Below are positions 3,844-47,427 of a stretch of 64,000 nucleotides of DNA, piece by piece. The position numbers and the translations under genes were made by a program. The DNA lies in the NCBI RefSeq assembly GCF_963921235.1, contig NC_086097.1, positions 22,012,001 through 22,076,000 of the forward strand, read 5' to 3'. Positions within the stretch are counted from its first letter, which is position 1. Each line of letters opens with the position of its first letter. This DNA is from Mobula hypostoma (lineage: Eukaryota). The notes under the pieces were generated by a model that was given only the letters and a program-made list of their open reading frames with translations, had not been told where the DNA came from and searched no databases.

Positions 3844-5514
3844 ACATAGAACATAGAATAGTACAGCACAGTACAGGCCCTTCGGCCCACAATGTTGTGC
3901 CGACCCTCAAACCCTGCTTCCCATATAAGCCCCCACCTTAAATTCCTCCATATACCTGTCTAGTAGTCTCTTAAACTTCACTAGTGTATCTGCCTCCACC
4001 ACTGACTCAGGCAGTGCATTCCACGCACCAACCACTCTCTGAGTAAAAGACCTTCCTCTAATATCCCCCTTGAACTTCCCACCCCTTACCTTAAAGCCAT
4101 GTCCTCTTGTATTGAGCAGTGGTGCCCTGGGGAAGAGGCGCTGGCTATCCACTCTATCTATTCCTCTTATTATCTTGTACACCTCTATCATGTCTCCTCT
4201 CATCCTCCTTCTCTCCAAAGAGTAAAGCCCTAGCTCCCTTAATCTCTGATCATAATGCATACTTTTTAAACCAGGCAGCATCCTGGTAAATCTCCTCTGT
4301 ATCCTTTCCAATGCTTCCACATCCTTCCTATAGTGAGGCGACCAGAACTGGACACAGTACTCCAATTCTGGCCTAACCAGAGTTTTATAAAGCTGCATCA
4401 TTACATCGCGACTCTTAAACTCTGTCCCTCAACTTATGAAAGCTAACACCCCATAAGCTTTCTTAACTACCCTATCTACCTGTGAGGCAACTTTCAGGGA
4501 TCTGTGGACGTGTACCCCCAGATCCCTCTGCTCCTCCACACTACCAAGTATCCTGCCATTTACTTTGTACTCTGCCTTGGAGTTTGTCCTTCCAAAGTGT
4601 ACAACCTCACACTTCTCTGGGAAGAACTCCATCTGCCACTTCTCTGGGAAGAACTCCATCTGCCACTTCTCAGCCCACTTCTGCATCCTATCAATGTCTC
4701 TCTGCAATCTTCGACAATCCTCTACACTATCTACAACACCACCAACCTTTGTGTCATCTGCAAACTTGCCAACCCACCCTTATACCCTCACATCCAGCTC
4801 GTTAATAAAAATCACGAAAAGTAGAGGTCCCAGAACAGATCCTTGTGGGACACCACTAGTCACAATCCTCCAATCTGAATGTATTCCCTCCACCACCACC
4901 CTCTGCCTTCTGCAGGCAAGCCAATTCTGAATCCACCTGGCCAAACTTCCCTGGATCCCATGCCTTCTAACTTTCTGAATAAGCCTACTGTGTGGAACCT
5001 TGTCAAATGCCTTACTAAAATCCATATAGACCACATCCACTGCACTACCCTCATCTATATGCCTGGTCATCTCCTCAAAGAACTCTATCAGGCTTGTTAG
5101 ACACGATCAGCCCTTCACAAAGCCATGCTGACTGTCCCTGATCAGACCATGATTCTCTAAATGCCCAGAGATCCTATCTCTAAGAATCTTTTCCAACAGT
5201 TTTCCCACCACAGACGTAAGGCTTACTGGTCTATAATTACCCGGATATCCCTACTACTTTTTTTGAACAAGGGGACAACATTCGCCTCCCTCCAATCCTC
5301 CAGTACCATTCCCGTGGACAACGAGGACATAAAGATCCTAGCCAGAGGCTCAGCAATCTCTTCTCTCACCTCGTGGAGCAGCCTGGGGAATATTCCGTCA
5401 GGCCCCGGGGACTTATCTGTCCTAATGTATTTTAACAACTCCAACACCTCCTCTCCCTTAATATCAACATGCTCCAGAACATCAACCTCACTCATATTGT
5501 CCTCACCATCATCA
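3844..5514 (-). mobile_element. 5'-truncated CR1 LINE with 3' UTR and (TTCTATG)n-type tail
   Basis: ORFs 3907..4401, 4429..4707, 4780..5070, 5223..5519 ([22 protein letters not shown]); tail seen as acatagaacatagaa at 3844; same subfamily as 50996-54317. Confidence 0.95.
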
Positions 5515-6249
5515 AACACAGGTACAATTCTTATAAAAACTGAAAAGACATATCAACCATACAGATGAATGCATTGTCCTTTGCAGAAATTGAAGCTAGA
5601 GGAATGTATTCTGGTTCACCCCGTTTCATTCACTTTTCTTGTTCCTTACCCCGTTCCTAGTAATACTCTTTTTTTCTGCCACATGTGTGACTTCACATGC
5701 ATATGATATTTCCTCAGATACCCTTTTTACACAATTAATCTAAGAGCTATCTGAAGACACAGAACCAAGCTTCCCATAGTTAATGTTGTAAAGCTAGCTT
5801 CTCTGAGTACATAAACCTTCCAAATATAAGCATATCAGTCGTTTGATATGCTAAATAATATTATCCATTTGGTCTGAAAGCTTCCTTGATTTAAACAACT
5901 TAGTCAGCTTGTCCGTTTTAAAACAAGGCAAATTAAATAGCCCATTGTCTTAAACTGCACCTCTTAAGAGCAATAAAGCAGGTGTAGTGGGCTAGCTGTC
6001 TGCTCCATAGAGTTTGTTTGCAAAGATACTCTATACACTCTGCTTGTTTTAACTGCAAAGTGATTACTGCTTGCAATTTACATTTTAAGAACTAGACTGG
6101 CTCCCATTTACCACCCAAAGCTAAACAACTGTTTAATCCTACAAGTGGCAGCTGCTGTATTCAGAAAACCAAGCCCGGCAAAGATGAGACCTCCTGGCCC
6201 AGGAAGCAAATGTCTATCACAAAGGAAACTGATCAGGCAACTTGTATAT

Positions 6250-7250
6250 CAAGGATCAAAGATCAACTTTATTCATCGTATATGTTTACATGTATTAGGA
6301 ATTTACTGTGGTGTGTTAGTCAGGGTGTGACATGCAACAACAAAACAGCATTCAACAATGACAAAGAATAGAGAATTAAATAAAATTAAATTAGAGATTA
6401 AAATGCAAATATGGAATAAAATGTGCATAAGTACATAAATAGCAGCATGTATTTACAATGCAGACAGCATTGTGGTTAAGAAGGCATACGGTGTAATGGC
6501 CTTCATTAATTGTGGAATTGAATTGAGGAGCCGAGAGGTAATGTTGCAGCTATATAGGACCCTGGTCAGACCCTACTTGGAGTACTGTGCTCAGTTCTGG
6601 TTGCCTCACTACAGGAAGGATGTGGAAGCCATAGAAAGGGTGCAGAGGAGATTTACAAGGATGTTGCCTGGATTGGGGAGCATGCCTTATGAAAACAGGT
6701 TGAGTGAACTCGGCCTTTTCTCCTTGGAGCAGAGGAGGATGAGCGGTGACCTGATAGAGGTGTATAAGATGATGAGAGGCATTGATCGTGTGGATAGTCA
6801 GAGGCTTTTTCCCAGGGCTGAAATGGCTGCCACAAGGGGACACAGGTTTAAGGTGCTGGGGAGTAGGTACAGAGGAGATGTCAGGGTAAGTTTTTTAGCA
6901 GAGAGTGTTGAGTGTATGGAATGGGCTGACGGCAACGGTAGTAGAGGCGGATACAATAGGGTCTTTTAAGAGACTTTTGGATAGGTACATGGAGCTTAGA
7001 AAAATAGAGGGCAATGGGTGAGCCTAGTAATTTCTAAGGTAGGGACATGTTTAGCACAACTTTGCGGGCTGAAGGGCCTGTATTGTGCTGTAGGTTTACT
7101 ATGTTTCTATTATAAAAAGTGTTTTGAAGTGTTTACAGTGCAGTGACAAGGGTAACAGATAGAGGGGTGTGGGAGGAGTGGTTGGTCCTGTATGGGGGAA
7201 GAAATTTTTAAGTTGGCACGAATTTTGTTTTAGTCGCCCTATAGAGCTCT
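6250..7250 (-). mobile_element. LINE-type 3' UTR with (GATCCTT)n tail, split by the CR1 at 6472-7110
   Basis: Both halves match the reverse complement of 32320-32770; the host sequence cagcat|tataaaa rejoins across the CR1. Confidence 0.75.
6472..7110 (+). mobile_element. CR1 LINE 3' fragment
   Basis: ORF 6472..6969 (LYRTLVRPYLEYCAQFW...), 3' UTR ending ctatgtttctat. Confidence 0.9.
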
Positions 7251-7276
7251 CAGGAAGAGAATATTGTGATGAGGGG

Positions 7277-8324
7277 CTGGAAGCAGGTGGAGGTAGGGGC
7301 GATGGAGTGAGTGCTGGTGGAAGCAGGTGGAGGTAGGGGCGATGGAGTGAGTGCTGGTGAAAGCAGGTGGAGGTAGGGGCGATGGAGTGAGTGCTGGTGA
7401 AAGCAAGTGGAGGTGGGGTCAATGGAGTGAGTGCTGGTGGAAGCAGGTGGAGATGGGGGCGATGGAATGAATGCTGGTGAAAGCAGGTGGAGGTAGGGGC
7501 GATGGAGTGAGTGCTGGTGAAAGCAAGTGGAGATGGGGGCGATGGAGTGAGTGCTGGTGAAAGCAGGTGGAGGTAGGGGCGATGGAGTGAGTGCTGGTGA
7601 AAGCAGGTGGAGGTAGGGGTGATGGAGTGAGTGCTGGTGGAAGCAGGTGGAGGTAGGGGCGATGGAGTGAGTGCTGGTGGAAGCAGGTGGAGGTGGGGGC
7701 GATGGAGTGAGTGCTGGTGGAAGCAGGTAGACGTGGGGGCGATGGAGTGAGTGCTGGTGGAAGTAGGTGGAGGTAGGGGCGATGGAGTGAGTGCTGGTGG
7801 AAGTAGGTGGAGGTGGGGGCGATGGAGTGAGTGCTGGTGAAAGCAGGTGGAGGTAGGGGCGATGGAGTGAGTGCTGGTGAAAGCAGGTGGAGGTAGGGGC
7901 GATGGAGTGAGTGCTGGTGGAAGCAGGTAGACGTGGGGGCGATGGAGTGAGTGCTGGTGGAAGTAGGTGGAGGTAGGGGCGATGGAGTGAGTGCTGGTGG
8001 AAGCAGGTAGACGTGGGGGCGATGGAGTGAGTGCTGGTGGAAGCAGGTGGAGGTGGGGGCGATGGAGTGAGTGCTAGTGGAAGCAGGTGGAGGTGGGGGC
8101 GATGGAGTGAGTGCTAGTGGAAGCAGGTGGAGGTAGGGGCGATGGAGTGAGTGCTGGTGGAAGCAGGTGGAGGTGGGGGCGATGGAGTGAGTGCTGGTGG
8201 AAGCAGGTGGAGGTGAGGGCGATGGAGTGAGTGATGGTGGAAGTAGGTGGAGGTGGGGGCGATGGAGTGAGTGCTGGTGGAAGCAGGTGGAGGTGGGGGC
8301 GATGGAGTGAGTGCTAGTGGAAGC
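7277..8324 (+). repeat. 40-bp G-rich minisatellite, about 26 copies
   Basis: Unit AAGCAGGTGGAGGT(A/G)GGGGCGATGGAGTGAGTGCTGGTG(G/A) in exact 40-bp register from 7281 to 8320. Confidence 0.98.
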
Positions 8325-9140
8325 GGCAAAGCAGGAGTTTGTTAGGAAGAAGGAGGACAATCCACTGAATTGATGACAACCCTACCAATGAGTGGTCAGG
8401 AAATGGTCTGACAGATAAGATAAGGGGGTTGAACGTGAGCAAGGTGAAATTTGTTTGCAGAACTACTGCGGACAACAGCTCTAGTAAAATTGTCGCAAAA
8501 TATTCCATCTTGTTCCTAAATCAGGCTTTCTCTCCGACAGACCTGCACTGATGAAGTACAAAGCCACTTAGCAACAGAGCAAATCAACAAACACAAAATA
8601 TGAAGGAGACGATTGGTATTTCCCTGGAGGAGTTGAGTTGCGGAGAGTTAAGATAATTTGCTTTTAAATCTTATTCTTTGGCTCAGCATTGATTTTGCCA
8701 GGGGTTACTTGGGAAGGAATAAAAGATCTGAACTATTAAAGCAGCAATTTGTGAAGGCAGCTTTAAGGTGTAATTGAATTGCTATTGACAGCTCAGTTCT
8801 TGCAGGACAGACACATAACACCAATTTGCATCTTTAAATGGACGATTAGCTGTAAATCCTGAAATGGCCCAAACCTTCTCGGCTTGTTGACAGACATCTG
8901 TCTGTACACCAAGGCTGCTTGGAAAACTGCTGTGACTGAATGCATGGACAAGAATGTTTAATGGAAGCATTTGTTAATTGTTGGTGCTGGGGGTGGGATC
9001 ATGGATGGGATTGAGATCACCAGCTGGTTGGAGATGTGCAGATGTTGCAAGTACAAATGCACAAGGATCCAGCCATTTAAAATGGGACAGGCTTGAGCTA
9101 ACTTGCATCTTGCACATTCCTTTCAGGACATCTCAAAGTA

Positions 9141-17600: not shown

Positions 17601-18596
17601 ACCCCATAGGAGAACATCATACTCAATGTGAGTGATTGTACTGCTACCTACCAATGATTATCAATACTTTTTTAAATGCATTCTTTTTCCTGGATTTCCT
17701 GCTCTTAAACCGAGGCTTGCCAGATGACTTCAAAGGACAAATTGATGTCAACTATATTGAGGTTTACTTGAAGGCTTAAAAAAAAGATAGGTTTTCGCTA
17801 TTAAGCCAATCTTAACCTTCAAACCCTCAACTGTAGCTGGCAAAAGCTGTGCTAGTGGGATGATGAATTTTGCCATTTCCGTGTCTGCCTTTGCCTAAGA
17901 GGGGCTCCTGTGATATAGGGAATGATCCATGTTCTGCTGGGTCTTGTCATGGAGCTTTAATATTAGAGAGAAATAAGGCTATAAGACATAATTGGGCCAT
18001 TCAGCCCTTCCAGCTTGTCATTTTGTCAAGGATGATTTATTATTCTTCTCAAACCCATTCACCTGCCTTTTCTCCATAACCTTTGACACCCCGGGGGGAT
18101 AAAGCTTCTTGTAGTCTGAGGCTATGCTCTCTTGTCCTACACTGTCCCACAGGAATGATACAGTGAACACAGTTAAGTTGAAGACCATTGCTTTGTGAAT
18201 GTTCAGTGTAAGACACGTTCACTTGCATGCTTCAGTGAGCCAGTCAACAAAACTAGGAGCTTGACCTTTGAATGAAAACATTTGAAAGCATTGATGTACT
18301 GCACTTTAATGACTGAGGTTGATATGAACTTGGATCTGAAGTTGAGACAATATTGGTCGAACAATTTTCACAAAGATTAGCTCCTCTCCAGCAGGAAGCT
18401 TATTGGAGGATGAGGTGAAGAACTGTGAGGATAAAATGCCCATATCCCTCCATTCTCTGCATTGGTGGATGCGAATTCAATCTGAACATCTAAGGATAAG
18501 CACATCTAAGAATCATGAATGGGGAGGGTATGGAGTTCAGGTTGATGGAAATAGGCAGAATAATAGTAAAACACAAACTAGATGGGCTGAAGGGAA

Positions 18597-19049
18597 ATGC
18601 AAACAACAGGAATTCTGCAGATGCTGGAAATTCAAGCAACATACATCAAAGTTGCTGGTGAACGCAGCAGGCCAAGCAGCATCTATAGGAAGAGGTGCAG
18701 TCGACGTTTCAGGCCGAGACCCTTCGTCAGGACTAACTGAAGGAAGAGTGAGTAAGGGATTTGAAAGTGGGAGGGGGAGGGGGAGATCCAAAATGACAGG
18801 AGAAGACAGGAGGGGGAGGGATAGAGCCAAGAGCTGGACAGGTGATAGGCAAAAGGGGATACGAGAGGATCATGGGACAGGAGGTCCGGGAAGAAAGACA
18901 AGGGGGGGGGTGACCCAGAGGATGGGCAAGAGGTATATTCAGAGGGACAGAGGGAGAAAAAGGAGAGTGAGAGAAAGAATGTGTGCATAAAAATGAGTAA
19001 CAGATGGGGTACGAGGGGGAGGTGGGGCCTTAGCGGAAGTTAGAGAAGT
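18597..19049 (-). mobile_element. Penelope-like terminal repeat (little-decayed copy) inserted in a CR1 tail
   Basis: Homologous to other PLE 3' ends in the window; interrupts gggctgaaggg...ctgtttctgtg of a CR1 3' UTR. Confidence 0.8.
18699..18734 (-). ncRNA. Minimal type I hammerhead ribozyme
   Basis: Minus strand AGUC-CUGACGA-AGG(GUCUCGG)CCU-GAAA-C-GUC-GACU: complete core, stem I AGUC/GACU, stem II AGG/CCU, GUC cleavage triplet. Confidence 0.85.
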
Positions 19050-19299
19050 GGGCTGGTCTGTTTCTGTGTTATAGTGCTCAATAACTTTATGAAAAAGCTT
19101 TCTTTTTTAATGACCCAGCCTTTCTTGCGAGGGTCTGCAGTGACAGTAGTGATATGCTGAATTGAACTGCATTGTCAACTTCTTTTTAGCAATCATTCCA
19201 ATATTTATGAGCTTCCTTCCCCACTTCTCTTTGATTTATCTGCCTGATCCCTTTTGAACTCTTGGGGATTGGTTTCAGTTCACGGAGCCCTTCAGTTCA

Positions 19300-19886
19300 A
19301 CTGCAAGAAGCAGGATTTCCCATTTTGATTCTACTTCCCATTCCCATTCCAACATGTTGGTCCATGGGTTCCTCTACTGCCATGAAGAGGCAACTCTCAC
19401 TTGGGAAGAGCAAAACTTCGTAGTTCATCTGAGTAGTCTCCAACCTGACAGCATGAACACCAACACCGATTTCTCCAACTTCTGGTAGTCTACCCCACCT
19501 TCTCTCTCTATCCATTCCCCATTCAGACTCCCCTCCCAAACCTTCCTTTCTCCTTATCTGCCTATCACCTCCCTCTGGTGCCCCTCCTCCTTCCCATTCT
19601 CCCATGGCCCACTGTCCTCTCGTATCAGATTTGTTCTTCTTCTGCCTTTTACCTTCTCCACCTAACACCTCCCAGCTTCTTTCTCTATCCCCCACCTCCC
19701 AACCCACCCATCTCTCTCCTCACCGGGCTTCACCTCTCACTTGCCAGCTGGTACTCCTTCCACCTTCCTCCACCTTCTTATTCTGGCTTTTCCCCCCTTC
19801 CATTCCTGTCCTGATGAAATGTCGACTCTTTACTCCTCTCCACGGATGCTGCCTGCTTTGCTGAGTTCCTCCTGCATTTTGTGTGA
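19300..19886 (+). mobile_element. Penelope-like 3' fragment (GIY-YIG C-terminus and terminal repeat)
   Basis: Colinear with about 30990-31460; hammerhead with stem II deleted at 19808-19826. Confidence 0.8.
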
Positions 19887-20454
19887 GTTACTCTTGAGTA
19901 CCAGATGTGGTTGCCTTAACTCCATCTCTCAAGAGGCAGAAGCTGAAAAGTGCTTGCCTCCACAATAACCTTTCCTGGCAAAAAATAGTGAATAAACACA
20001 ATAGATGAACAGCCACATTTGCAATAACAAAGACATGATTCTCATATTTAATAACCAACTTTGGAGATTGATTTCAAGGCTGCAATCTGATCTCACTGCT
20101 CAGATGGTTGATGTAGACTGCTCAGAGCTAAACCCTTCAGAGACTAGCCACAAAGTCTAACGTATCACTTTCAGCTCTCTTGTAACATTGCAGAAACAAA
20201 GCTGAATCCGTAACATGAATCCTGGGGAGGTGAGAACACATGTGGTTTCACTTCAGTTCCTTTGTCTCCTCAGATACAACTCACTGAGTTTCTTAATGAA
20301 TTATCCTGCAAGAGGTGGTGTTAAGTAATGTTACGATTCAGCCTTGGAACAATGAACTGTTTGATTTTAAGTGGGCCCTTGTGTTCCAGATTAAATGTGG
20401 CCACCAGGCTCTTGCTGCTACTCTTCCGCACCAATTTGGCAGCTGGATGTACTT

Positions 20455-21372: not shown

Positions 21373-21546
21373 TACATTGAATATCAAAGCATGCATGCTC
21401 CCATATACGACCTTCAGATTTATTTTCTTGTAGGCATTTCAGGAAAATAAAGAAATACAATAGGATTTATGAGAAAGACGTATAGAATGACAAACAATTA
21501 ATGTGTCAAAGAAGACAAATTAAGCAAATAAAAAACAATAATGTTG

Positions 21547-23516
21547 AAAGTGGCTCACCTGAGGACTGGGAGAAATTCAGAGTTCAGCAGAGGAGGACAA
21601 AGGGCTTAATTAGGAAGGGGAAAAAAGATTATGAGAGAAAACTGGCAGAGAACATAAAAACGGACTGTAAAAGCTTTTATAGATATGTAAAAAGGAAAAG
21701 ACTGATAAAGACAAATATAGGTCCCCTGCAAACAGAAACAGGTGAATTGATTATGGGGAGCAAGGACATGGCAGACCAATTGAATAATTACTTTGGTTCT
21801 GTCTTCACTAAGGAGGACATAAATAATCTTCCAGAAATAGTAAGGGACAGAGGGTCCAGTGAGATGGAGGAACTGAGCGAAATACATGTTAGTAGGGAAG
21901 TGGTGTTAGGTAAATTGAAGGGATTGAAGGCAGATAAATCCCCAGGGCCAGATGGTCTGCATCCCAGAGTGCTTAAGGAAGTGGCCCAAGAAATAGTGGA
22001 TGCATTAGTGATAATTTTTCAAAACTCGTTAGATTCTGGACTAGTTCCTGAGGATTGGAGGGTGGCTAATGTAACCCCACTTTTTAAAAAAGGAGGGAGA
22101 GAGAAACCGGGGAATTATAGGCCGGTTAGCCTAACGTCGGTGGTGGGGAAACTGCTGGAGTCAGTTATCAAGGATGTGATAACAGCACATTTGGAAAGCG
22201 GTGAAATGATCGGACAAAGTCAGCATGGATTTGTGAAAGGAAAATCATGTCTGACGAATCTCATAGAATTTTTTGAGGATGTAACTAGTAGAGTGGATAG
22301 GGGAGAACCAGTGGATGTGGTATATTTGGATTTTCAAAAGGCTTTTGACAAGGTCCCACACAGGAGATTAGTGTGCAAACTTAAAGCACACGGTATTGGG
22401 GGTAAGGTATTGGTGTGGGTGGAGAATTGGTTGGCAGACAGGAAGCAAAGAGTGGGAATAAACGGGACCTTTTCAGAATGGCAGGCGGTGACTAGTGGGG
22501 TACCGCAAGGCTCAGTGCTGGGACCCCAGTTGTTTACAATATATATTAATGACTTGGATGAGGGAATTAAATGCAGCATCTCCAAGTTTGCGGATGACAC
22601 AAAGCTGGGTGGCAGTGTTAGCAGTGAGGAGGATGCTAAGAGGATGCAGGGTGACTTGGATAGGTTGGGTGAGTGGGCAAACTCATGGCAGATGCAATTT
22701 AATGTGGATAAATGTGAAGTTATCCACTTTGGTGGCAAAAATAGGAAAACAGATTATTATCTGAATGGTGGCCGATTAGGAAAAGGGGAGGTGCAACGAG
22801 ACCTGGGTGTCATTATACACCAGTCATTGAAAGTGGGCATGCAGGTACAGCAGGCGGTGAAAAAGGCGAACGGTATGCTGGCATTTATAGCGAGAGGATT
22901 CGAGTACAGGAGCAGGGAGGTACTACTGCAGTTGTACAAGGCCTTGGTGAGACCACACCTGGAGTATTGTGTGCAGTTTTGGTCCCCTAATCTGAGGAAA
23001 GACATCTTTGCCATAGAGGGAGTACAAAGAAGGTTCACCAGATTGATTCCTGGGATGGCAGGTCTTTCATATGAAGAAAGACTGGATGAACTGGGCTTGT
23101 ACTCGTTGGAATTTAGAAGATTGAGGGGGGATCTGATTGAAACGTATAAGATCCTAAAGGGATTGGACAGGCTAGATGCGGGAAGATTGTTCCCGATGTT
23201 GGGGAGGTCTAGAACGAGGGGTCACAGTTTGAGGATAGAGGGGAAGCCTTTTAGGACCGAGGTTAGGAAAAACTTCTTCACACAGAGAGTGGTGAATCTG
23301 TGGAATTCTCTGCCACAGCAAACTGTTGAGGCCAGTTCATTAGCTATGTTTAAAAGGAAGTTAGATATGGCCCTTGTGGCTACAGGGGTCAGGGGGTATG
23401 GAGGGAAGGCTGGGTTCTGAGTTGGATGATCAGCCATGATCATAATAAATGGCGGTGCAGGCTCGAAGGGCCGAATGGCCTACTCCTGCACCTATTTTCT
23501 ATGTTTCTATGTTTCT
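21547..23516 (+). mobile_element. Young 5'-truncated CR1 LINE with an uninterrupted RT-to-C-terminus reading frame
   Basis: ORF 21501..23420 (first ~15 aa from flank) with [24 protein letters not shown]; 3' hairpin 23454-23492; (ctatgttt)n tail; no endonuclease domain. Confidence 0.95.
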
Positions 23517-24029
23517 AAAACGTAAGTTGTAGAGTCCTTGAAAGTGAGTGTGTAGATTGTGAATCAGTTCAAAGTTGTGAATGAAGTTATCCACGCTGGT
23601 TCAGGAGCATGATGGTTGGATGGAAATAACAGTTGCTGAAGCAGGTGGGGTGGGATCTCAGGCTCCTGCACCTCCTACCTGAGGACAGATGTGAGTAGAG
23701 AGGATGGCATGGGTGGTGGGCATGCTTGGTGACGGATGCTGCTTTCTTGTAGCAGTCCTCCTTGTAAATATACTCATTACGACAGCTTCCAGCACTCAGT
23801 CCATAGCCATGAAGTCACACTCTTGCAGTATACATCCAAGTACTGTTAAAATGTGATGACAGGTCTCTGGCTCTGCTGCCCTCTGAGGAAAAAGTGATTC
23901 CCCATCTCCTCTCCAATCCTTCCTCCAGTTACTTTCAAATCTACACAGCCTCAGTTTTGACCCCTCTGAATGAGGGCAGCTTCAACAATACTCAAGAAGC
24001 TTGACATAATAAGGACATAGCAGCTCAAT

Positions 24030-30149: not shown

Positions 30150-31460
30150 GTTAATATTCCCCAACTCTTCCTGCTGAGCTCGTCAATTTCATCAACTTGG
30201 TCCATTTCTGACACTTCTTTCTCCTTCTTGATATCTGTCTCCATCTCTTCGGACAAACTGACTGCCAACATCTTTTATAAACCTACCAATTCCCACAACT
30301 ATCTTGACGATATCTTTTCCATCCTGTCTCCTGTAAAATTCTATTCCACTTTCTCAGTTACTTCATCTCTGCCGCATCTGTTCCCAGAATGAAGATTTCC
30401 TTTCTAGGACATTAGGGATGTCCTCCTTGAAAGAACAAAGAACAAATTTTCCCTTCTTTCAGTATTGATGCTGCTCCGTTCGGCAACTCTTCCATTTCCA
30501 AGACATCCATGCTCGTCCCATCTTGCTGATTACTTAACAGGGATAGAGTTCCTCTTGTCCTCACCTACCACTCCATGAGCCTCTGCATTCAACACACCAT
30601 TCTCCACATCCTGCGCCACCTTCAATGGGATTCTATCATGAAACACATCTTTATCTCCACCCCCCTCCCCACCTGCTCTCTGCTTTTTGCAGGGATCAGT
30701 CCCTCCATGATTCCCTTGTCCACTTGTCCCTCCTCATTAATTTCCCTCCTGGCACATATCACTGCAAGCCACAGAAGTGCTACACCTGCTCATTTGCCTC
30801 TTCCTTCACCTTCATTCTGGGCTCCAAGTGAGGCAACTCTTCACCTGCTAATCTGTTGGGGGTCATCTATTGTGTTCAATGCTTCCGATGCAGCCTCCTG
30901 TACACTGGTGAGACCCAACGTAAGTTGGGGGACTAGTTTATTGAGCAACTCCACCCCAACAGCCAAAAGCAGAATTTCCCGGTGGACAACAATTTTAATT
31001 CCTATCCATTTCCCCATTCTGACATGTCGGTCCATGGCCTCCTCTTTTTCTATGATGAGGCCTCTCTCAGGGTGGAAGAGTAACACCTCATATCCTGTCT
31101 TGGTAGCCTCCACCCTGATAGCCTGAACATCGATTTCTCCTTCAGGTAATTTTTTCCCCTTGCCCTTCCCTCTTCTATTCCCCAGTCTGGCCTCTTACCT
31201 ATTCTCACCTGCCTATCACCTCCCACTGGGTCCCCTCCTCCTTCCCTTTCTCCTATCGTCCACTCACCTCTCCTATCAGATTTCTTCCTCTCCAGCCCTT
31301 CACCTTTCGCACCCACCTGGCTTCCACTCCTCCCACTTTTTTATTTTGGTGTCTTCCCCTTCCTTTCCAGTCCAGAAGGGTCTCAGCCCAAAACAGCAAC
31401 CGTTTATTTATTGCTATTGATGCTGCCTGACCTGCTGAGCTGCCCCTGCGATGTGTGTGT
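30150..31460 (+). mobile_element. Penelope-like element: RT C-terminus, Zn-binding linker, GIY-YIG endonuclease, terminal repeat (decayed)
   Basis: Manual translation across frameshifts: IFYKPTNSHNYLD, DRVPLVLTYH, CKPQKCYTC, GVIYCVQCFRCSLLYTGETQR (GIY-YIG). Confidence 0.85.
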
Positions 31461-31675
31461 TTTACAATGGAACAGGCTGAGCCCATTGCACTCTGAAACC
31501 TCGTGCGTTTTCTGAAATATTGTGAAAAGCTTGTCTTGCATACGGATCAAATCATTACACTGTATATCTATAGCAGTTTAGTCCATAAGATACTAGAGCA
31601 GAATTAGGCCAATCAACCCATCGAGTTTGCTCCACCATTCGATCGTAGTGGATTTATTTTTCAAATCAAACATTC

Positions 31676-33237: not shown

Positions 33238-34258
33238 TCAGTATTTAGTAGATGCACCTTTGGCAGCAATTACAGCCTTGAGTCTGTGTGGATAGGTCTT
33301 TATCAGCTTTGCACATCTGGACACTGCAGCTTTTCCCCATTCTTCTTCACAAAACTGCTCAAGCTCTGTCAGATTGTTTGGGGACCGTGAGTTAACAGCC
33401 CTCTTCAAGTCCAGCCACAAATTTTCAATTAGATTGAGGTTTGGACTCTGACTTGCCCACTCCAGGACATTAACTTTGTTGTTTTTAAACCATTCCTGTG
33501 TAGCTTTGTCTTTATGCTTGGTGTCATTATCTTGCTGGAACACATATCTTCTCCCAAGTTGCAATTCTCTTGCAGACTGCATCAGGTTTTCCTTCAGGAA
33601 TTCCCTGTATTTTGCTGCATTCATTTTACCCTCTACCTTGACAAGCCTTCCAGGACCTGCTGAAGTGAAGCATCCCCACAGCATGATGCAGTCACCACCA
33701 TGCTTCACAGTAGGGATGATGTGTTTTTGATAATGTGCGGTGTTTGGCTTACACCAAACGTAGCATTTAGTCTGATGGCCAAAAAGCTCAAACTTAGTTT
33801 CATCAGACCATAACACCTTCTTCCAGCTGACTTCAGAGTCTCCCACAAGCTTTCTGGCAAACTCTAGCCGAGATTTCATGTTAGTTTTTCCCAACTGTTG
33901 CTTTCCCTTTGCCACTCTCCCATAAAGCTGCGACTGGTGAAACACGTGGGCAACAATTGTTGTATGCGCAGTCTCTCCCATCTCAGCCACTGAAGCTTGT
34001 AACTCCTCCAGAGTTGTCATAGGTCTCTCAGTGGCCTCCCTCACTAGTCCCCTTCTTGTACAGTTACTCAGTTTTTGAGGATGGCCTGCTCCAGGGAGAC
34101 TTACAGCTGTGCCATATTCTTTCCGTTTCTTAATGATTGACTTAACTGTACTCCACAGGATATTCAGTGTCTTGAAAATTTTCTTGTATCGATCTCCTGA
34201 CTTGTGCTTTTCAATAACCTTTTTACAGAGTTGCTTGGATTGTTCTTTTCGTCTTCAT
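33238..34258 (-). pseudogene. Tc1 DD34E transposase with a single +1 frameshift near codon 3-4
   Basis: WSDETK, FQQDND-(34 aa)-E, LWGCF, AKGASTKY; ATG at 34258; frame open from codon 4 to the stop. Confidence 0.9.
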
Positions 34259-34461: not shown

Positions 34462-36987
34462 GCGTGCAATAAAGGAACAGCAGTTATAATGGGTGACTTC
34501 AATCTACATATAGATTGGGTGAACCAAATTGGTAAGGGTGCTGAGGAAGAGGATTTCTTGGAATGTATGTGGGATGGTTTTTTGAACCAACATGTCGAGG
34601 AACCAACTAGAGAGCAGGCTATTCTAGACTGGGTATTGAGCAATGAGGAAGGATTAATTAGCAATCTTGTCGTGAGAGGCCCCTTGGGTAAGAGTGACCA
34701 TAATATGGTGGAATTCTTCATTAAGATGGAGAGTGACATAGATAATTAAGAAACAAAGGTTCTGAACTTAAAGAAGAGTAACTTTGAAGGTATGAGACGT
34801 GAATTAGCTAAGATAGACTGGCAAATGATACTTAAAGGGTTGACGGTGAATATGCAATGGCAAGCATTTAAAGGTTGCATGGATGAACTACAACAATTGT
34901 TCATCCCAGTTTGGCAAAAGAATAAATCAGGGAAGGTAGTGCACCCATGGTTGACAAGGGAAATTAGGAATTGTATCAATTCCAAAGAAGAAGCATAGAA
35001 ATTAGCCAGAAAAAGCGGTTCACCTGAGGACTGGGAGAAATTCAGAGTCCAGCAGAGGAGGACAAAGGGCTTAATTAGGAAAGGGAAAAAGGTTATGAGA
35101 GAAAACTGGCAGGGAACATAAAAACTGACTGCAAAAGCTTTTATAGATATGTGAAAAGAAAAAGATTGGTTAAGACAAATGTAGGTCCCCTACAGACAGA
35201 AACAGGTGAATTGATTATGGGGAACAAGGACATGGCAGACCAATTGAATAATTACTTTGTTTCTGTCTTCACTAAGGAGGACATAAATAATCTTCTGGAA
35301 ATAGTAGGGGACAGAGGGTCTAGTGAGATAGAGGAAATGAGGGAAATACATGTTAATAGGGAAGTGGTGTTAGGTAAATTGAAGGGATTAAAGGCATTTA
35401 AATCCCTAGGGCCAGATGGTCTGCATCCCAGAGTGCTTAAGGAAGTAGCCCAAGAAATAGTGGATGCATTAGTGATAATTTTTCAAAATTCTTTAGATTC
35501 TGGACTAGTTCCTGAGGATTGGAGGGTGGCTAATGTAACCCCGCTTTTTAAAAAAAGAGGGAGAGAGAAACCAGGGAATTACAGACTGGTTAGCCTAACA
35601 TCGGTGGTGGGGAAAATACTAGAGTCAGTTATCAAAGATGTGATAACAGCACATTTGGAAAGCAGTGAAATCATCAGACAAAGTCAGCATGGATTTGTGA
35701 AAGGAAAATCATGTCTGACGAATCTCATAGAATTTTTTTGAGGATGTAACTAGTAGAGTGGATAGGGGAGAACCAGTGGATGTGGTATATTTGGATTTTC
35801 AAAAGGCTTTTGACAAGGTCCCACACAGGAGATTAGTGTGCAAACTTAAAGCACACGGTATTGGGGGTAAGGTATTGGTGTGGGTGGAGAATTGGTTAGC
35901 AGACAGGAAGCAAAGAGTGGGAATAAACGGGACTTTTTCAGAATGGCAGGCAGTGACTAGTGGGGTACCACAAGGCTCAGTGCTGGGACCCCAGTTGTTT
36001 ACAATATATATTAATGACTTAGATGAGGGAATTAAATGCAGCATCTCCAAGTTTGCAGATGACACAAAGTTGGGCGGCAGTGTTAGCTGTGAGGAGGATG
36101 TTAAGAGGATGCAGGCTGACTTGGATAGGTTAGGTGAGTGGGCAAATTCATGACGGATGCAATTTAATGTGGATAAATGTGAGGTTATCCACTTTGGTGG
36201 CAAAAACAGGAAAACAGATTATCATCTGAATGGTAGCCGATTAGGAAAAGGGGAGGTGCAATGAGACCTGGGTGTCATTATACACCAGTCATTGAAAGTG
36301 GGCATGCAGGTACAGCAGGCGGTGAAAAAGGCAAATGGTATGCTGGCATTCATAGCAAGAGGATTTGAGTACAGGAGCGGGGAGGTACTACTGCAGTTGT
36401 ACAAGGCCTTGGTGAGACCACACCTGGAGTATTGTGTGCAGTTTTGGTCCCCTAATCTGAGGAAAGACATTCTTGCCATAGAGGGAGTACAAAGAAGGTT
36501 CACCAGATTGATTCCTGGGATGGCAGGACTTTCATATGATGAAAGACTGGATCGACTAGGCTTATACTCGTTGGAATTTAGAAGATTGAGGGGAGATCTT
36601 ATTGAAACGTATAAAATCCTAAAGGGATTGGACAGGCTAGATGCAGGAAGATTGTTCCCGATGTTGAGGAAGTCCAGAACGAGGGGTCACAGTTTGAGGA
36701 TAAAGGGGAAGCCTTTTAGGACTGAGATGAGGAAAAACTTCTTCACACAGAGAGTGGTGAATCTGTGGAATTCTCTGCTACAGGAAACAGTTGAGGCCAG
36801 TTCATTGGCTATGCTTAAGAGGGAGTTAGATATGGTCCTTGTGGCTAAAGGGATCAGGGGGTATGGAGGGAAGGCAGGTGCAGGGTTCTGAGTTGGATGA
36901 TCAGCCATGATCATACTGAATGGCGGTGCAGGCTCGAAGGGCCGAATGGCCTACTCCTGCACCTATTTTCTATGTTTCTATGTTTCT
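34462..36987 (+). mobile_element. CR1 LINE (APE C-terminus, RT, 3' UTR) inserted into the Tc1 TIR
   Basis: MGDFN, LDWVL, SDH, FADD; several stops; AATT at 34458-34461 and 36988-36991; same subfamily as 21547-23516. Confidence 0.95.
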
Positions 36988-37749
36988 AATTATTTTGTGT
37001 TTTATATTTGTAATTAATTTAGATCACTTTGTAGAGATATGTTTTCACTTTGACACAAAAGGGTCTTTTTCTGTTGATCAGTGTCAAAAAAAGCTAAATT
37101 AACTCCACTGTGATTCAGTGTTGTAAAACAATAAAACAGGAAATCTTTCGGAGGGGACAGTGAATACCTTTTACCGGCTCTTTACCTGGCATGTTGGCCT
37201 TCATCAGTTAGGGCACTGGAAGCGGGAGTCGGAACATCATAGTTCAATTATACAAGATGCTGGCGAGGTCGCGTCAGGAGTATTATGTACAATCTTGGTT
37301 ACCTTGTTATAGGAAAGACTTCATTAAGATGAAAAGAGTGCAAAGAATATTTACATGAACGTTGCCAGCGTAAAAAGATGCAGAAAGTTTTCAACGCTGC
37401 AAGCTGCATCAAGGGCACTAGTCTGTTCAGTGGCATACATCATTAAGGACCCACATCATTCAGGACATGCCGTCTTCTCATTGCTGCAGGAGCCTGAAGA
37501 CACACACTCAACATTTCAGGAGAAGCTTCTTTCCCTTTGCCATCAGATTTCTGATTAGACAATGAACATTACCTCAGTAATTTTTATCCCTCTGTTTTGC
37601 ACTACTTATTTAGTTTAATTTTCTTTTTTATGTCTGACTTATTGCATTGTATATTTTTAGTTAATATATATTACAATGTACTGCTGCCATAAAACAACAA
37701 ATCTCACGCCATATGCCAGTGGTATTAAACTTGATTCTGATTTTCAACA

Positions 37750-42189: not shown

Positions 42190-42330
42190 TCAAAAACACA
42201 AGACAGTCTGCAGATACTGGAAATTCAACATAACACACACAAAACACTGGAGGAACTCAGCAGGTCAGGCAGCATTTATGGAAAAGAATGAACAGTCGAC
42301 GTTTCGGGCCAAGACCCTCCTTCAGGACTA
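42190..42330 (-). mobile_element. Penelope-like terminal fragment with a near-intact hammerhead
   Basis: Minus strand AGUC-CUGAAGG-AGGGUCUUGGCCC-GAAA-C-GUC-GACU at 42294-42329 (A9 to G). Confidence 0.75.
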
Positions 42331-44455: not shown

Positions 44456-47427
44456 TCGGTGACTTCACGGCAGCATAGCTCTTGGGGTATGGAGCGTGAG
44501 TCACGCTGTGTGATCACAGAGCCACATTCTGAAAACAAACACTTAGCACTAATCCCAGTCCCTGCAAGGCATCCAACTGAGCTCACAACCGCAAGAGAAA
44601 ATAATTATAACTCATTTGCACAGCACTGAAAATGCTTCAAATGGAGAAGATGTCACATCAGAGTGGTGCCGAGTTGGTTCAGCCCTGTCCCTTGGAGAAA
44701 TCTCTGCCAAACCAGGTGCTGACATGTCCTCTAGACAGTGATATGTTAATACGGAGACTGAGTGAAAGATGCGCTCTTCAGTGGAATCTCCAGAGGGATC
44801 CTCTACTTCAGCTTCAGCCAAGTGAGATGCACTTCCCGTGGATTAATACAGAGAGCATTAAACTGCATCTCAAGAGCAGGATCAGACTTGTCTGGTGCTG
44901 GGAGGTGAATGCACTGTCTCATTGAATGTAACCAAGAGACAGTCAGAAGCCTGCAGATGTTAACTAATGCTGAGCAACCACTTGTTGACAATCAACATCA
45001 AGGATGGTAGGTGACATGACAACACGAGACATACCACTTATTTTAATGACGTTAACTTTCTGACAAATGGCAAAAGAAATCCTCACCTTCTCTTCAACTT
45101 GCTGTGCAGTTTGTCAACATAATTGAATGGTGTACACATCATGGGAAATGTTAAAATACAAAGGTGAGATTAGCTTTATCTGTCACACGTACTTTGAAAC
45201 ATACTGTGAAGTGCGTCATTTGTGTCACGTCAGATCAGCGAGTATTAAGCCATCATGTCGCCACGCATCTGGCACACAATTTACCAACTCCTTTGGAATG
45301 CGGGAGAAAACCAGAGCACCCAGAGGAAACCCATGCAGTCACAGGGAGAATGGACACACTCCATGTAGAAAATGGCCGGAATTGAACCTGAATTTAAAAC
45401 AGCAGTCCTGGTGAAGGGACTTGGCCTGAAACGTCGAGTATTTACTCCTCTCCATGGATGCTGCCTGATCTGCTGAGTTCCTCCAGCATTTTGTGTGTCT
45501 TGCATTGCAATGTAAAGCATTGCACTAAACTTTATGAGACTATAAAACATAGGAGCAGAATTAGGCTATTTGGCCCTTCAAGTCTGCTGCACCATTCTAT
45601 CATGGCTGATTTATTATCCCTCTCAACCTCATTCTCCTACCTTCTCCCCATGACCTTTGACATCCTGACTAATCAAGAACATATCAACTTCTGCTTTGAG
45701 TATACCCAATGACTTGGCCTCCACAGCCACCTGTGGCAATCTTCATCTGTGTTCTAAATGGAAATCCTTCTAGTTTGAGGCCATAGACTCTGGTCCTAGT
45801 TTCACCCACCTCCCCCACTCTGTCTAGACCTATCAATATTCACTAGATTTCAATGAGATCCCACCCCGCCCCCCCCACTCATTCTTCTAAACTCCACTGA
45901 GTACAGGCCCAGAGCCATCAAAGGTTCCTCATACGTTAACCTTTCCATTCCGGAATCATTCTTGTGAACCTCCTCTGGATTCTCTCCAATGCCAGCACAT
46001 GTTTTCTTAGATAAGGGGCTCACAGTACTCGTGTGATCTGACCAGTGCCCCATAAAGACTCAGCCTTACATTCTTGCTCTTATATTCCAATTCTTTTGAA
46101 ATGAATGTTAACTTCACATTTGCCTTCCTTACCACCTGTAAGTTAACCTTTAGGGAATTCTGCACAAGAACTCCCAAGTTTTGCACCTCATATACTTGGA
46201 TTTTCTCCCCATTTATAAAGTAAACTATGCCTTCATTCTTACTACCAAAGTACATGACCATACACATCATTACACAATATTCCATCCACCAATCCATTTC
46301 CCGTTCTCCCAATCTGTCTAAGTACTTCTGCAAGCTCCCTGTTTCCTCAGCCACCACTCGCCCTCCCACCTATCTTCCTACCATCCACAAAGCCATCAGT
46401 TCCATCATCCAAATTATTTACAAATAACGGGTAAGAATCAGTCCCAACACTGACCCCTGTGGAACATCACTTATCAACAACAGCAAATCAGAAAAAGCCC
46501 CTTTATTCCCATTCTTTGTCTCCTGCCAGTTAGCCAATCTCCTATCGATGTTAGTAACTTTCCCATAATACCATTGGCTCTTATTTTGTAGTGTGGCACT
46601 TTGTCAAAGGCCTACTGAAAATCCAAATAAACAACATCAACTGACTCTCCTTGATCTATCCTGCCTGTTGTTTCCTCAAAGAATTCTAACAGATTCGTCA
46701 GGCAAGATTTCCCCTTCAGAAAATCATGCTGACTTTGGGCCTATTTTATCATTGCCACCAAGTACCCTGAAACCTCTTACTTAATAAAGGACTCTAACAT
46801 CTTTACAACCACTGAAGACAGGCTAAATAGCCTATAATTTCCTTTCTTCTGCCTCCCTCCCTCCCTTCCTAAGGAGTGGAATGGCATTTGCAATTGTTCT
46901 TTCCTGCCGAAGCATTCCAGAACCTATTGATTCTTGAAAGATAATTACTACTGTCTCCACAATCTCTTCAGCTACCTCTGGGCGGTCATCCATCTGGTCC
47001 AGGTGACTTATCTATCTCCAGCCTTTTCAGTTTCCTAAGATCCTGCTCCTTAGTAATAGCAGTTATGCTCACTTCTGCCCCCTGACACTCTCTCATTTCT
47101 AGAATACTGCTAGTGCCTTCCACAATGAAGCCGGTCGCAAAATACTTATTAAGTTCCTCCTTCATTACTACCTCTTCAGTTTCATTTTCCAGCAGTAAGA
47201 TAGCCACTGTCTTCTCCCTTTCAGTCCTTATATATCTGAAAAAACTTCTTGTATCCACTTTTATATCTTGGCTAGCTTGTCTTTATATTTTATCTTTTCT
47301 TTCTTTATGGCTTTTTAATTGACTTCTGTTGGTTTTTAAAATCTTCACAATCTCCTACCTTCCCACTAATTATATGCTCTCTCTTTTGCTGTTATACTGC
47401 CTTTGACTTCCCTTGTCAGCCGTAGTT

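What the first reader, a model, noticed from the sequence alone, without database searches (positions are those of the whole stretch)
18699..18734. Intact minimal type I hammerhead ribozyme in a Penelope-like terminal repeat
Seen: the minus strand reads AGUC CUGACGA AGG-GUCUCGG-CCU GAAA C GUC|GACU. All core nucleotides are present, with a 4-bp stem I, a 3-bp stem II and a loopless, self-complementary ACGU stem III. Established: Penelope-like elements carry minimal type I hammerheads in their terminal repeats, and the palindromic stem III favours dimeric cleavage. Inference: this copy is little decayed and could cleave any transcript crossing it on the minus strand, after about position 18703.
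Basis: partly seen in the sequence, partly recalled or inferred. Interest (0 to 1): 0.72.

Follow-up and report, generated by a model that had tools for sequence, protein, structure and literature searches.

The report
Minimal hammerhead in young Penelope fragment
The 36 bases are a real copy of the small hammerhead ribozyme motif that Penelope-like jumping genes carry, here in a recent, truncated 450-base insertion in a cartilaginous-fish genome; the kind is already described and a lone copy probably does not cut RNA by itself.

Summary
The motif is there exactly as read (minus strand, 18734-18699; predicted cut between 18703 and 18702) and is not chance (3 hits in 1000 shuffles of the window). 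It sits in the 3' terminal repeat of a 5'-truncated, 450-bp fragment (19049-18600) of a very abundant Penelope-like element, probably Neptune-type; protein relatives of the family come from rays, skates and a shark. The fragment is nested in an older repeat and looks young: contigs of two related organisms stop at its junctions. Stem II is better drawn as an extra A plus G10.1-U11.1 (4 bp), not A-U (3 bp); U11.1 is the majority letter of the family in this lineage (about 79% of laid depth, against 25% in a more distant organism), so it is a subfamily trait, not decay. And 'could cleave any transcript crossing it' is not supported: published minimal PLE hammerheads do not cleave as monomers and need a partner or the element's protein; no intact partner lies in the window, the active fold is under 0.2% of the ensemble, and this copy was itself made from RNA uncut at this site. 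New member of a known kind; low interest.

The parts
18699..18734 (-). Minimal type I hammerhead motif (36 nt)
   Evidence: Sequence; only strict-descriptor hit in the window, 3 in 1000 shuffles
18731..18734 (-). Stem I, 5' arm (pairs with 18699-18702)
   Evidence: Sequence; 4 Watson-Crick pairs
18724..18730 (-). Catalytic core C3-A9 (CUGACGA)
   Evidence: Sequence; consensus in PMC4209133 Fig. S3
18723..18723 (-). Extra nucleotide (A) between A9 and G10.1
   Evidence: Folding register; described as conserved in PLE minimal hammerheads
18711..18722 (-). Stem-loop II: GGGU / CUCG / GCCU, closed by G10.1 (18722) with U11.1 (18711)
   Evidence: C instead of U at 18711 in 21%, 24%, 21% and 75% of laid depth in runs X1, X5, X9, X18
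18703..18710 (-). G12-A13-A14-A15.1-C-G-U16.1-C17; loopless palindromic ACGU (18707-18704); predicted cut between 18703 and 18702
   Evidence: Sequence; ACGU self-duplex only -1.7 kcal/mol
18699..18702 (-). Stem I, 3' arm
   Evidence: Sequence
18600..19049 (-). Whole insertion: 5'-truncated 3' end of a Penelope-like element (450 bp)
   Evidence: Summed contig depth of millions over about 18587-19037 against 9-10 on unique flanks in X1; loose ends pile at 18600 (207 records) and 19049 (217 records)
19030..19047 (-). Last five codons and stop of the element's ORF (FSNFR*), C-terminus of the GIY-YIG endonuclease
   Evidence: Translation; same C-terminus in P0003, P0006, P0007; family contigs continue upstream into the same domain (table 7, translated by hand)
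18735..19029 (-). Pyrimidine-rich 3' untranslated region between the ORF stop and the hammerhead
   Evidence: Sequence; same layout in older copies at 19.3-19.9 kb and 30.3-31.5 kb
18600..18698 (-). Terminal-repeat tail downstream of the hammerhead; the element ends 103 nt past the predicted cut
   Evidence: Shared by 10 window copies; 3' end from loose ends at 18600
18575..18594 (+). Left half of an older repeat tail that the element interrupts
   Evidence: Aligns to uninterrupted copies at 11.1, 44.4 and 62.4 kb
19055..19075 (+). Right half of the interrupted older repeat tail; 18595-18599 and 19050-19054 are 5-nt junction fillers
   Evidence: flank contigs of X5 and X18 start at 19055

Best explanation
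This is the ordinary minimal type I hammerhead of a Penelope-like element (PLE), carried as a passenger in a young, dead-on-arrival 3' fragment. Shown: the motif, the element's ends, its ORF terminus, its nesting in an older repeat, and the family's abundance. Inferred: a full-length or tandem family member was transcribed; its RT began about 100 nt downstream of the hammerhead, copied through the uncut cleavage site and stopped after 450 nt, six codons into the endonuclease ORF. In the source elements the hammerhead works, if at all, as a conditional switch: two copies pair through ACGU, helped by the element's protein, to process tandem transcripts. At this locus there is no partner in cis and the sequence prefers other folds, so a transcript crossing it is left essentially uncut.
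For: Motif and chance test. PLE identity: the neighbouring relic ORF 19258-19485 finds 17 proteins at E up to 0.001, the 8 looked up all from rays, skates or whale shark, two of 17 with weak Pfam GIY-YIG hits (E 0.001-0.002), one with RT-thumb-linker-endonuclease layout; three end in the same FSNFR as this copy. Boundaries and abundance. Youth: X1 contigs span both junctions with 0 differences, while flank contigs of X5 stop at 18594 and 19055 (7 differences in 589 nt) and that of X18 at 19055; the copy carries a letter at 18642 shared by up to 20% of laid depth in X1 but 2.6% in X5 and 1.3% in X18. The insertion keeps 103 nt downstream and 347 nt upstream of the cut (coordinates), and family depth is level across the cut (7.6 and 7.7 million in adjacent bins). 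Folding: minimum-energy form pairs core GACG with CGUC; cleavage-ready fraction 0.0018 for the 36-mer, 0 of 5000 samples in 101-450 nt contexts. Literature: monomer inactive, dimers weak; protein-assisted, not needed for insertion in vitro, no RNA-seq ends at the site.
Against: No cleavage assay exists for this family. Nearest-neighbour folding ignores tertiary contacts, Mg2+ and proteins and scores real hammerhead cores poorly. With a family of this size, partners in trans may be plentiful. One Xenopus dimer was highly active. The empty site in X5 and X18 is inferred from where contigs stop; no joint across it was listed for them (150 joints hidden), and the one empty-site joint listed (X1, one contig, 20 nt on the short side) may come from another copy of the flanking repeat. 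No full RT-endonuclease ORF of this exact subfamily was in reach; Pfam scored nothing on the window's own PLE relics. No covariation among 8 window copies, which are mostly decayed.
Confidence: 0.82

Rival explanations
1. Conditionally active at this locus: a host or read-through transcript crossing the copy in sense is cut when the element's protein is present (for example in the germ line) or when a second family RNA pairs in trans through ACGU. Young copies like this one would then be many protein-gated cut sites in host pre-mRNA.
For: Core intact and family-typical; protein-assisted cleavage shown for the anole PLE hammerhead; the copy keeps the 100 nt downstream where RT starts in that system (by analogy); family very abundant.
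Against: ACGU duplex is worth only -1.7 kcal/mol and two copies prefer a long inactive duplex (-28.3 kcal/mol); no host exon or strand found in the window; no RNA-seq ends at the cut in the anole data.
Confidence: 0.1
2. One reading: an autonomous, constitutively active ribozyme that cuts any minus-strand transcript after 18703.
For: All core nucleotides and stem I are present.
Against: No helix III in a monomer; published monomers of this class inactive; cleavage-ready fold under 0.2%; the insertion itself was copied across the site.
Confidence: 0.03
3. The lineage's U11.1 subfamilies have a weakened or lost ribozyme and spread regardless; the sequence is kept for another reason (protein binding, or overlap with splicing signals just downstream) or simply hitch-hikes.
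For: C11.1 falls from 75% of laid depth in X18 to 21-24% in X1, X5, X9; hammerhead mutants did not affect insertion in vitro; hammerhead-less Naiad PLEs proliferate well.
Against: G10.1-U11.1 closes helix II in 8 of 56 published representative minimal hammerheads (my count from Fig. S3), so it is a tolerated variant; no other variant of 10% or more was listed inside the 36 nt, though it holds 4 CpGs.
Confidence: 0.05

Closest known systems
[quoted passage not shown]
   Same: CUGANGA core plus one extra nucleotide, short helix I (4 bp), loopless palindromic 15.2-16.2, position in the 3' terminal repeat of a 5'-truncated PLE, dispersed as single motifs in large numbers.
   Different: Helix II is short (4 bp) and closed by G-U rather than the commoner G-C (43 of 56 G-C, 8 of 56 G-U, my count). 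No cartilaginous fish is among the 56 listed examples. The family here appears far more abundant than the 4,000-9,000 motifs reported for coelacanth and Xenopus.
Hammerhead of the Poseidon element of Anolis carolinensis, PAc (Frangieh et al. 2024, PMC11167929; read: main text and part of methods)
   Same: Hammerhead in the pLTR, with the element's end about 100 nt further on, and insertions copied from RNA uncut at the hammerhead.
   Different: PAc is Poseidon clade; relatives of this family show a CX4CxxC linker before the endonuclease, which points to Neptune or Nematis. In PAc the ORF starts at stem II; no such long ORF start is seen here.
Non-LTR retrozymes (Cervera and De la Pena 2020, PMC7229834, passages; Li, Clavereau and Pollet 2026, bioRxiv 2026.07.22.740005, parts 1-3 of 5)
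   Same: Type I hammerhead derived from a PLE terminal repeat; reported in one sampled chondrichthyan genome.
   Different: Retrozymes are tandem units with two or more hammerheads; this is one copy that still bears the ORF end and 3' UTR of the PLE.

Membership tests
PLE minimal type I hammerhead | Core CUGANGA ... GAAA N N U H | tested here: met
PLE minimal type I hammerhead | [quoted passage not shown] | tested here: met
   A18723; favoured register; feature named
PLE minimal type I hammerhead | Helix II closed by a 10.1-11.1 pair (usually G-C; G-U in 8 of 56 published examples) | tested here: met
   G18722-U18711; the family holds both C and U here; published list. It is not the commonest G-C form.
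PLE minimal type I hammerhead | Palindromic, loopless helix III allowing a dimer | tested here: met
   ACGU at 18707-18704
PLE minimal type I hammerhead | Lies in the terminal repeat of a PLE, downstream of the endonuclease end | tested here: met
   FSNFR* at 19047-19030, 295-nt UTR, then the motif
PLE minimal type I hammerhead | Compensatory changes in stems across the family | tested here: inconclusive
   0 pairs with two-sided change among 8 window copies, score below shuffles; only one-sided C/U change at 11.1; no genome-wide alignment possible
PLE minimal type I hammerhead | Self-cleavage as dimer or with protein | not testable with these tools
   Needs an in vitro assay
Penelope-like element, EN+ | C-terminal GIY-YIG endonuclease after a telomerase-like RT | tested here: inconclusive
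   Only six codons survive in this copy. Relatives in the window (30210-31140, E 1e-44 to P0002) and database proteins show the RT-thumb-linker-GIY-YIG layout; Pfam GIY-YIG only at E 0.001-0.002, under its cut-off. Domain motifs were recognised by eye.
Neptune clade of PLEs | CX2-5CxxC linker and RT phylogeny | tested here: inconclusive
   Linker seen in P0002, P0007, P0010 and the 30.7-kb relic (criterion), not in this copy; no RT tree built
Non-LTR retrozyme | Tandem units, at least two consecutive complete hammerheads | tested here: not met
   One intact motif in 64 kb; no tandem at the locus
Canonical type I hammerhead (Rfam models) | Match to an Rfam hammerhead family; helix I of about 6 bp with loop 1-loop 2 contact and a closed helix III | tested here: not met
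   No hammerhead family among 5 matches up to E 5; helix III absent

The most novel reading that the evidence does not exclude
A still-active ray PLE family has spread on the order of 100,000 young, intact minimal hammerheads through the genome, and its recent subfamilies fixed a G10.1-U11.1 pair that tunes cleavage; whenever the element's protein is expressed, these copies act as protein-gated cut sites in host transcripts that cross them in sense. A candidate splice acceptor 16 nt past the motif would also put the ribozyme inside the element's own intron, so that splicing, not cleavage, decides which RNA is translated and which is copied.
Probability: 0.07. Interest if true: 0.6.

Novelty: new member of a known kind. 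Interest (0 to 1): 0.15.

Why it matters
As a single locus it matters little: it is one of very many copies of an RNA class described in 2014. What the role of PLE hammerheads is remains open in the papers read, and this family offers a natural experiment: young, lineage-specific insertions, and a C-to-U change at the conserved 11.1 position that rose from about a quarter to about four fifths of laid depth between related organisms. I found no paper describing these motifs in rays or sharks by sequence (searches; one preprint counts retrozymes in one chondrichthyan; its supplements could not be seen, and Lunse et al. 2016 was not held).

Tried and rejected
Own genome not held, so no genome-wide count, consensus, orientation bias or covariation test. 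Rfam: no hammerhead match. My first idea, that U11.1 is private CpG decay of this copy, was rejected: it is the majority letter among laid family contigs in X1, X5 and X9. Fewer variable sites inside the motif than beside it (1 in 36 nt against 12 in 135 nt) is not significant by a rough Poisson estimate (about 0.17, my arithmetic). Covariation on 8 of the 10 window copies: none above shuffles in either register (the two copies with most of stem II deleted were left out). The 214-aa plus-strand frame over the motif (18346-18990) has no Pfam match and is the antisense of the pyrimidine-rich UTR. Host gene: 139 frames against Pfam gave only LINE-type RT/endonuclease and Tc1 pieces plus sub-threshold hits; the weak EF-hand hit at 1794-2054 had no PDB match; an exon scan gave 21 candidates, none recognised. 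Expression: no RNA holder listed; run X9, RNA by guess only, has contigs on both unique flanks at depth 2.5-3.8 but contigs show no strand or ends. Word-based homolog search and the Atlas were blank for the neighbouring relic ORF; the Atlas search with P0006 returned only its GPCR part. The sigma-70 scan is not meaningful for a vertebrate. Effect of G10.1-U11.1 on rate: searches and passages gave no measurement.

Full report
Observation. In standard numbering C3-A9 are 18730-18724, G12-A15.1 are 18710-18707, U16.1 is 18704 and C17 is 18703, so the predicted cut lies between 18703 and 18702. A strict minimal type I descriptor (core, paired stem II, GAAA-N-N-U-H with paired N-N, stem I of 3 or more) finds only this site in the window, and 3 sites in 1000 dinucleotide shuffles of the whole window. 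Rfam, searched to E 5, gave 5 unrelated matches and none here.

What carries it. A profile search finds 10 related terminal-repeat copies in the window; the other 9 have core changes or deletions. Laying contigs of four public runs on 18300-19500 at 86% likeness shows summed depth of 2.4 to 7.8 million over about 18587-19037 in run X1 against 9-10 on unique flanks. The tool warns that this is no copy number; the ratio suggests an order of 100,000 related copies. Loose ends pile up at 18600 (207 records) and at 19049 (217), which fixes the insertion at 450 bp. Its 5' end is the last six codons of an ORF, FSNFR* at 19047-19030, and the family contigs that run on beyond 19049 continue, by my hand translation of the consensus, into SLQPDGMNID. 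An older relic next door (19258-19485, plus strand) has the same terminus; as a query it finds 17 proteins at E up to 0.001. The 8 of 17 looked up are gene models of Hypanus, Rhinoraja, Leucoraja and Rhincodon; P0003, P0006 and P0007 end in FSNFR; P0007 and P0010 have sub-threshold Pfam GIY-YIG hits; P0002 shows, by eye, RT motifs, thumb, a CX4CxxC linker and the endonuclease, and matches a longer relic at 30210-31140 at E 1e-44. By the criterion in Craig et al. 2021 (PMC8557442, passages) that linker points to Neptune or Nematis; no RT tree was built. So the layout is ORF end, 295-nt pyrimidine-rich UTR, hammerhead, 99-nt tail: the 3' end of a 5'-truncated PLE in a cartilaginous fish.

Age. 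The flanks are two halves of an older repeat tail found whole at 11.1, 44.4 and 62.4 kb (I take it for a LINE tail from recall). X1 contigs cross both junctions without a difference (18300-18620; 19023-19348). Flank contigs of X5 (organism B, 7 differences in 589 nt) stop at 18594 and 19055 with 7 and 14 unmatched letters left over, and that of X18 (organism D) stops at 19055 with 14. This is what an empty site would give, but no joint was listed for those runs, so it is an inference. One X1 contig joins 18594 to 19058; it may be an empty allele or another copy of the repeat tail. The family has subfamily letters confined to organism A (18696: 21% in X1 against 0.8% in X5; 18829: 28% against 0.1%), and this copy's letter at 18642 is shared by up to 20% of depth in X1 against 2.6% and 1.3%. 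The family has therefore been amplifying since A and B parted, and this copy is recent. 'Little decayed' is right.

Position 11.1. I first took U18711 for CpG decay of the conserved G10.1-C11.1 pair. says otherwise: C is read in 21% (X1), 24% (X5), 21% (X9) and 75% (X18) of laid depth. It is the only variant listed inside the 36 nt, although the motif holds 4 CpGs; 23 weaker rows were hidden, some differences were not counted, and the 86% cut-off favours close relatives. So U11.1 marks the subfamilies that dominate organisms A and B. It is also within the known range: of the 56 representative motifs in Fig. S3 of Cervera and De la Pena 2014, I count 43 closed by G-C, 8 by G-U, 3 by A-U and 2 by U-A, and none from a cartilaginous fish. 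In all four runs loose ends gather at both edges of the motif (18698 and 18734; 394 and 449 records in X1), meaning that other repeat families share the 36-mer better than its flanks; part of this is due to indels. Covariation could not be shown on the decayed window copies.

Would it cut? The monomer has no helix III. Its lowest-energy fold pairs core GACG with CGUC; the cleavage-ready fold is 0.18% of sampled structures for the 36-mer, 0.04% at 56 nt and 0 of 5000 in four longer contexts; two copies prefer an inactive duplex, and ACGU alone gives -1.7 kcal/mol. Such models ignore tertiary structure and proteins, so this is suggestive only. The literature agrees in direction: a single Schistosoma motif showed no cleavage and dimers and trimers low cleavage (PMC4209133); the anole PLE hammerhead cleaved only with the element's protein, its mutants inserted normally, and no RNA-seq reads ended at the site (PMC11167929); 1 of 9 Xenopus dimers cleaved (bioRxiv 2026.07.22.740005); a review passage repeats the dimer requirement (PMC6765202). 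No intact partner lies within the window. The insertion runs 103 nt past the cut, and family depth is level across it, so the RNA that was copied was uncut (or re-ligated) there. No host exon or transcript strand was found.

Verdict. A correct catch of a known class. The most likely state is an intact passenger motif in a young dead fragment, functional only in the context of tandem source elements and their protein. Earlier notes of this scan report the same class many times in this genome; they are unchecked and were not used as support. What this locus adds is small: evidence of very recent activity and a lineage shift at 11.1. Interest 0.15.

Noticed in passing
window 18683-18698, minus strand: A pyrimidine run ending in TAG (18685-18683), followed by ATG, lies just past stem I and looks like a 3' splice acceptor; 5 of 10 window copies keep YAG there and the loose-end consensus of other families does too. 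The core CUGAC fits a branch-point consensus (recalled) 44 nt upstream. If real, the hammerhead would lie inside the element's intron.
   Followed up: no
joints 18734 to 18700 and 18734 to 18698: A few contigs go back about 35 nt across the motif (3 in X1, 1 in X5, 1 in X18), which would be head-to-tail hammerhead duplications at other loci, natural dimers; may also be alignment artefacts.
   Followed up: no
window 19228-19926, plus strand: Older PLE 3' fragment (endonuclease end, UTR, terminal repeat) 180 bp from the target, opposite strand, with 15 nt of the hammerhead deleted.
   Followed up: partly
window 30210-31503, plus strand: Longest PLE relic in the window: RT end, CX4CxxC linker, GIY-YIG with stops and frameshifts, then a decayed hammerhead.
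   Followed up: partly
window 42291-42329 (minus) and 45404-45439 (plus): Two near-intact hammerheads of an older family, each with a core change (position 9 and position 6); the first keeps G10.1-C11.1, the second has U11.1.
   Followed up: partly
P0003, P0006, P0010, P0014: Database gene models of rays and skates in which the PLE endonuclease end is fused to host proteins (ATP synthase c, neuromedin-U receptor, DUF4518 protein, VKOR): exonised PLE pieces or annotation artefacts.
   Followed up: no
window 33238-34254, minus strand: Uninterrupted 338-aa Tc1-type transposase frame (DDE_3, HTH_Tnp_Tc3_2, HTH_SB).
   Followed up: no
window 21486-23518 and 35012-36989: Two LINE-type copies 94% alike over 2 kb; the first keeps a 644-aa frame with RVT_1.
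   Followed up: no
window 7278-8324: Tandem array with a 40-bp period, about 93% alike.
   Followed up: no
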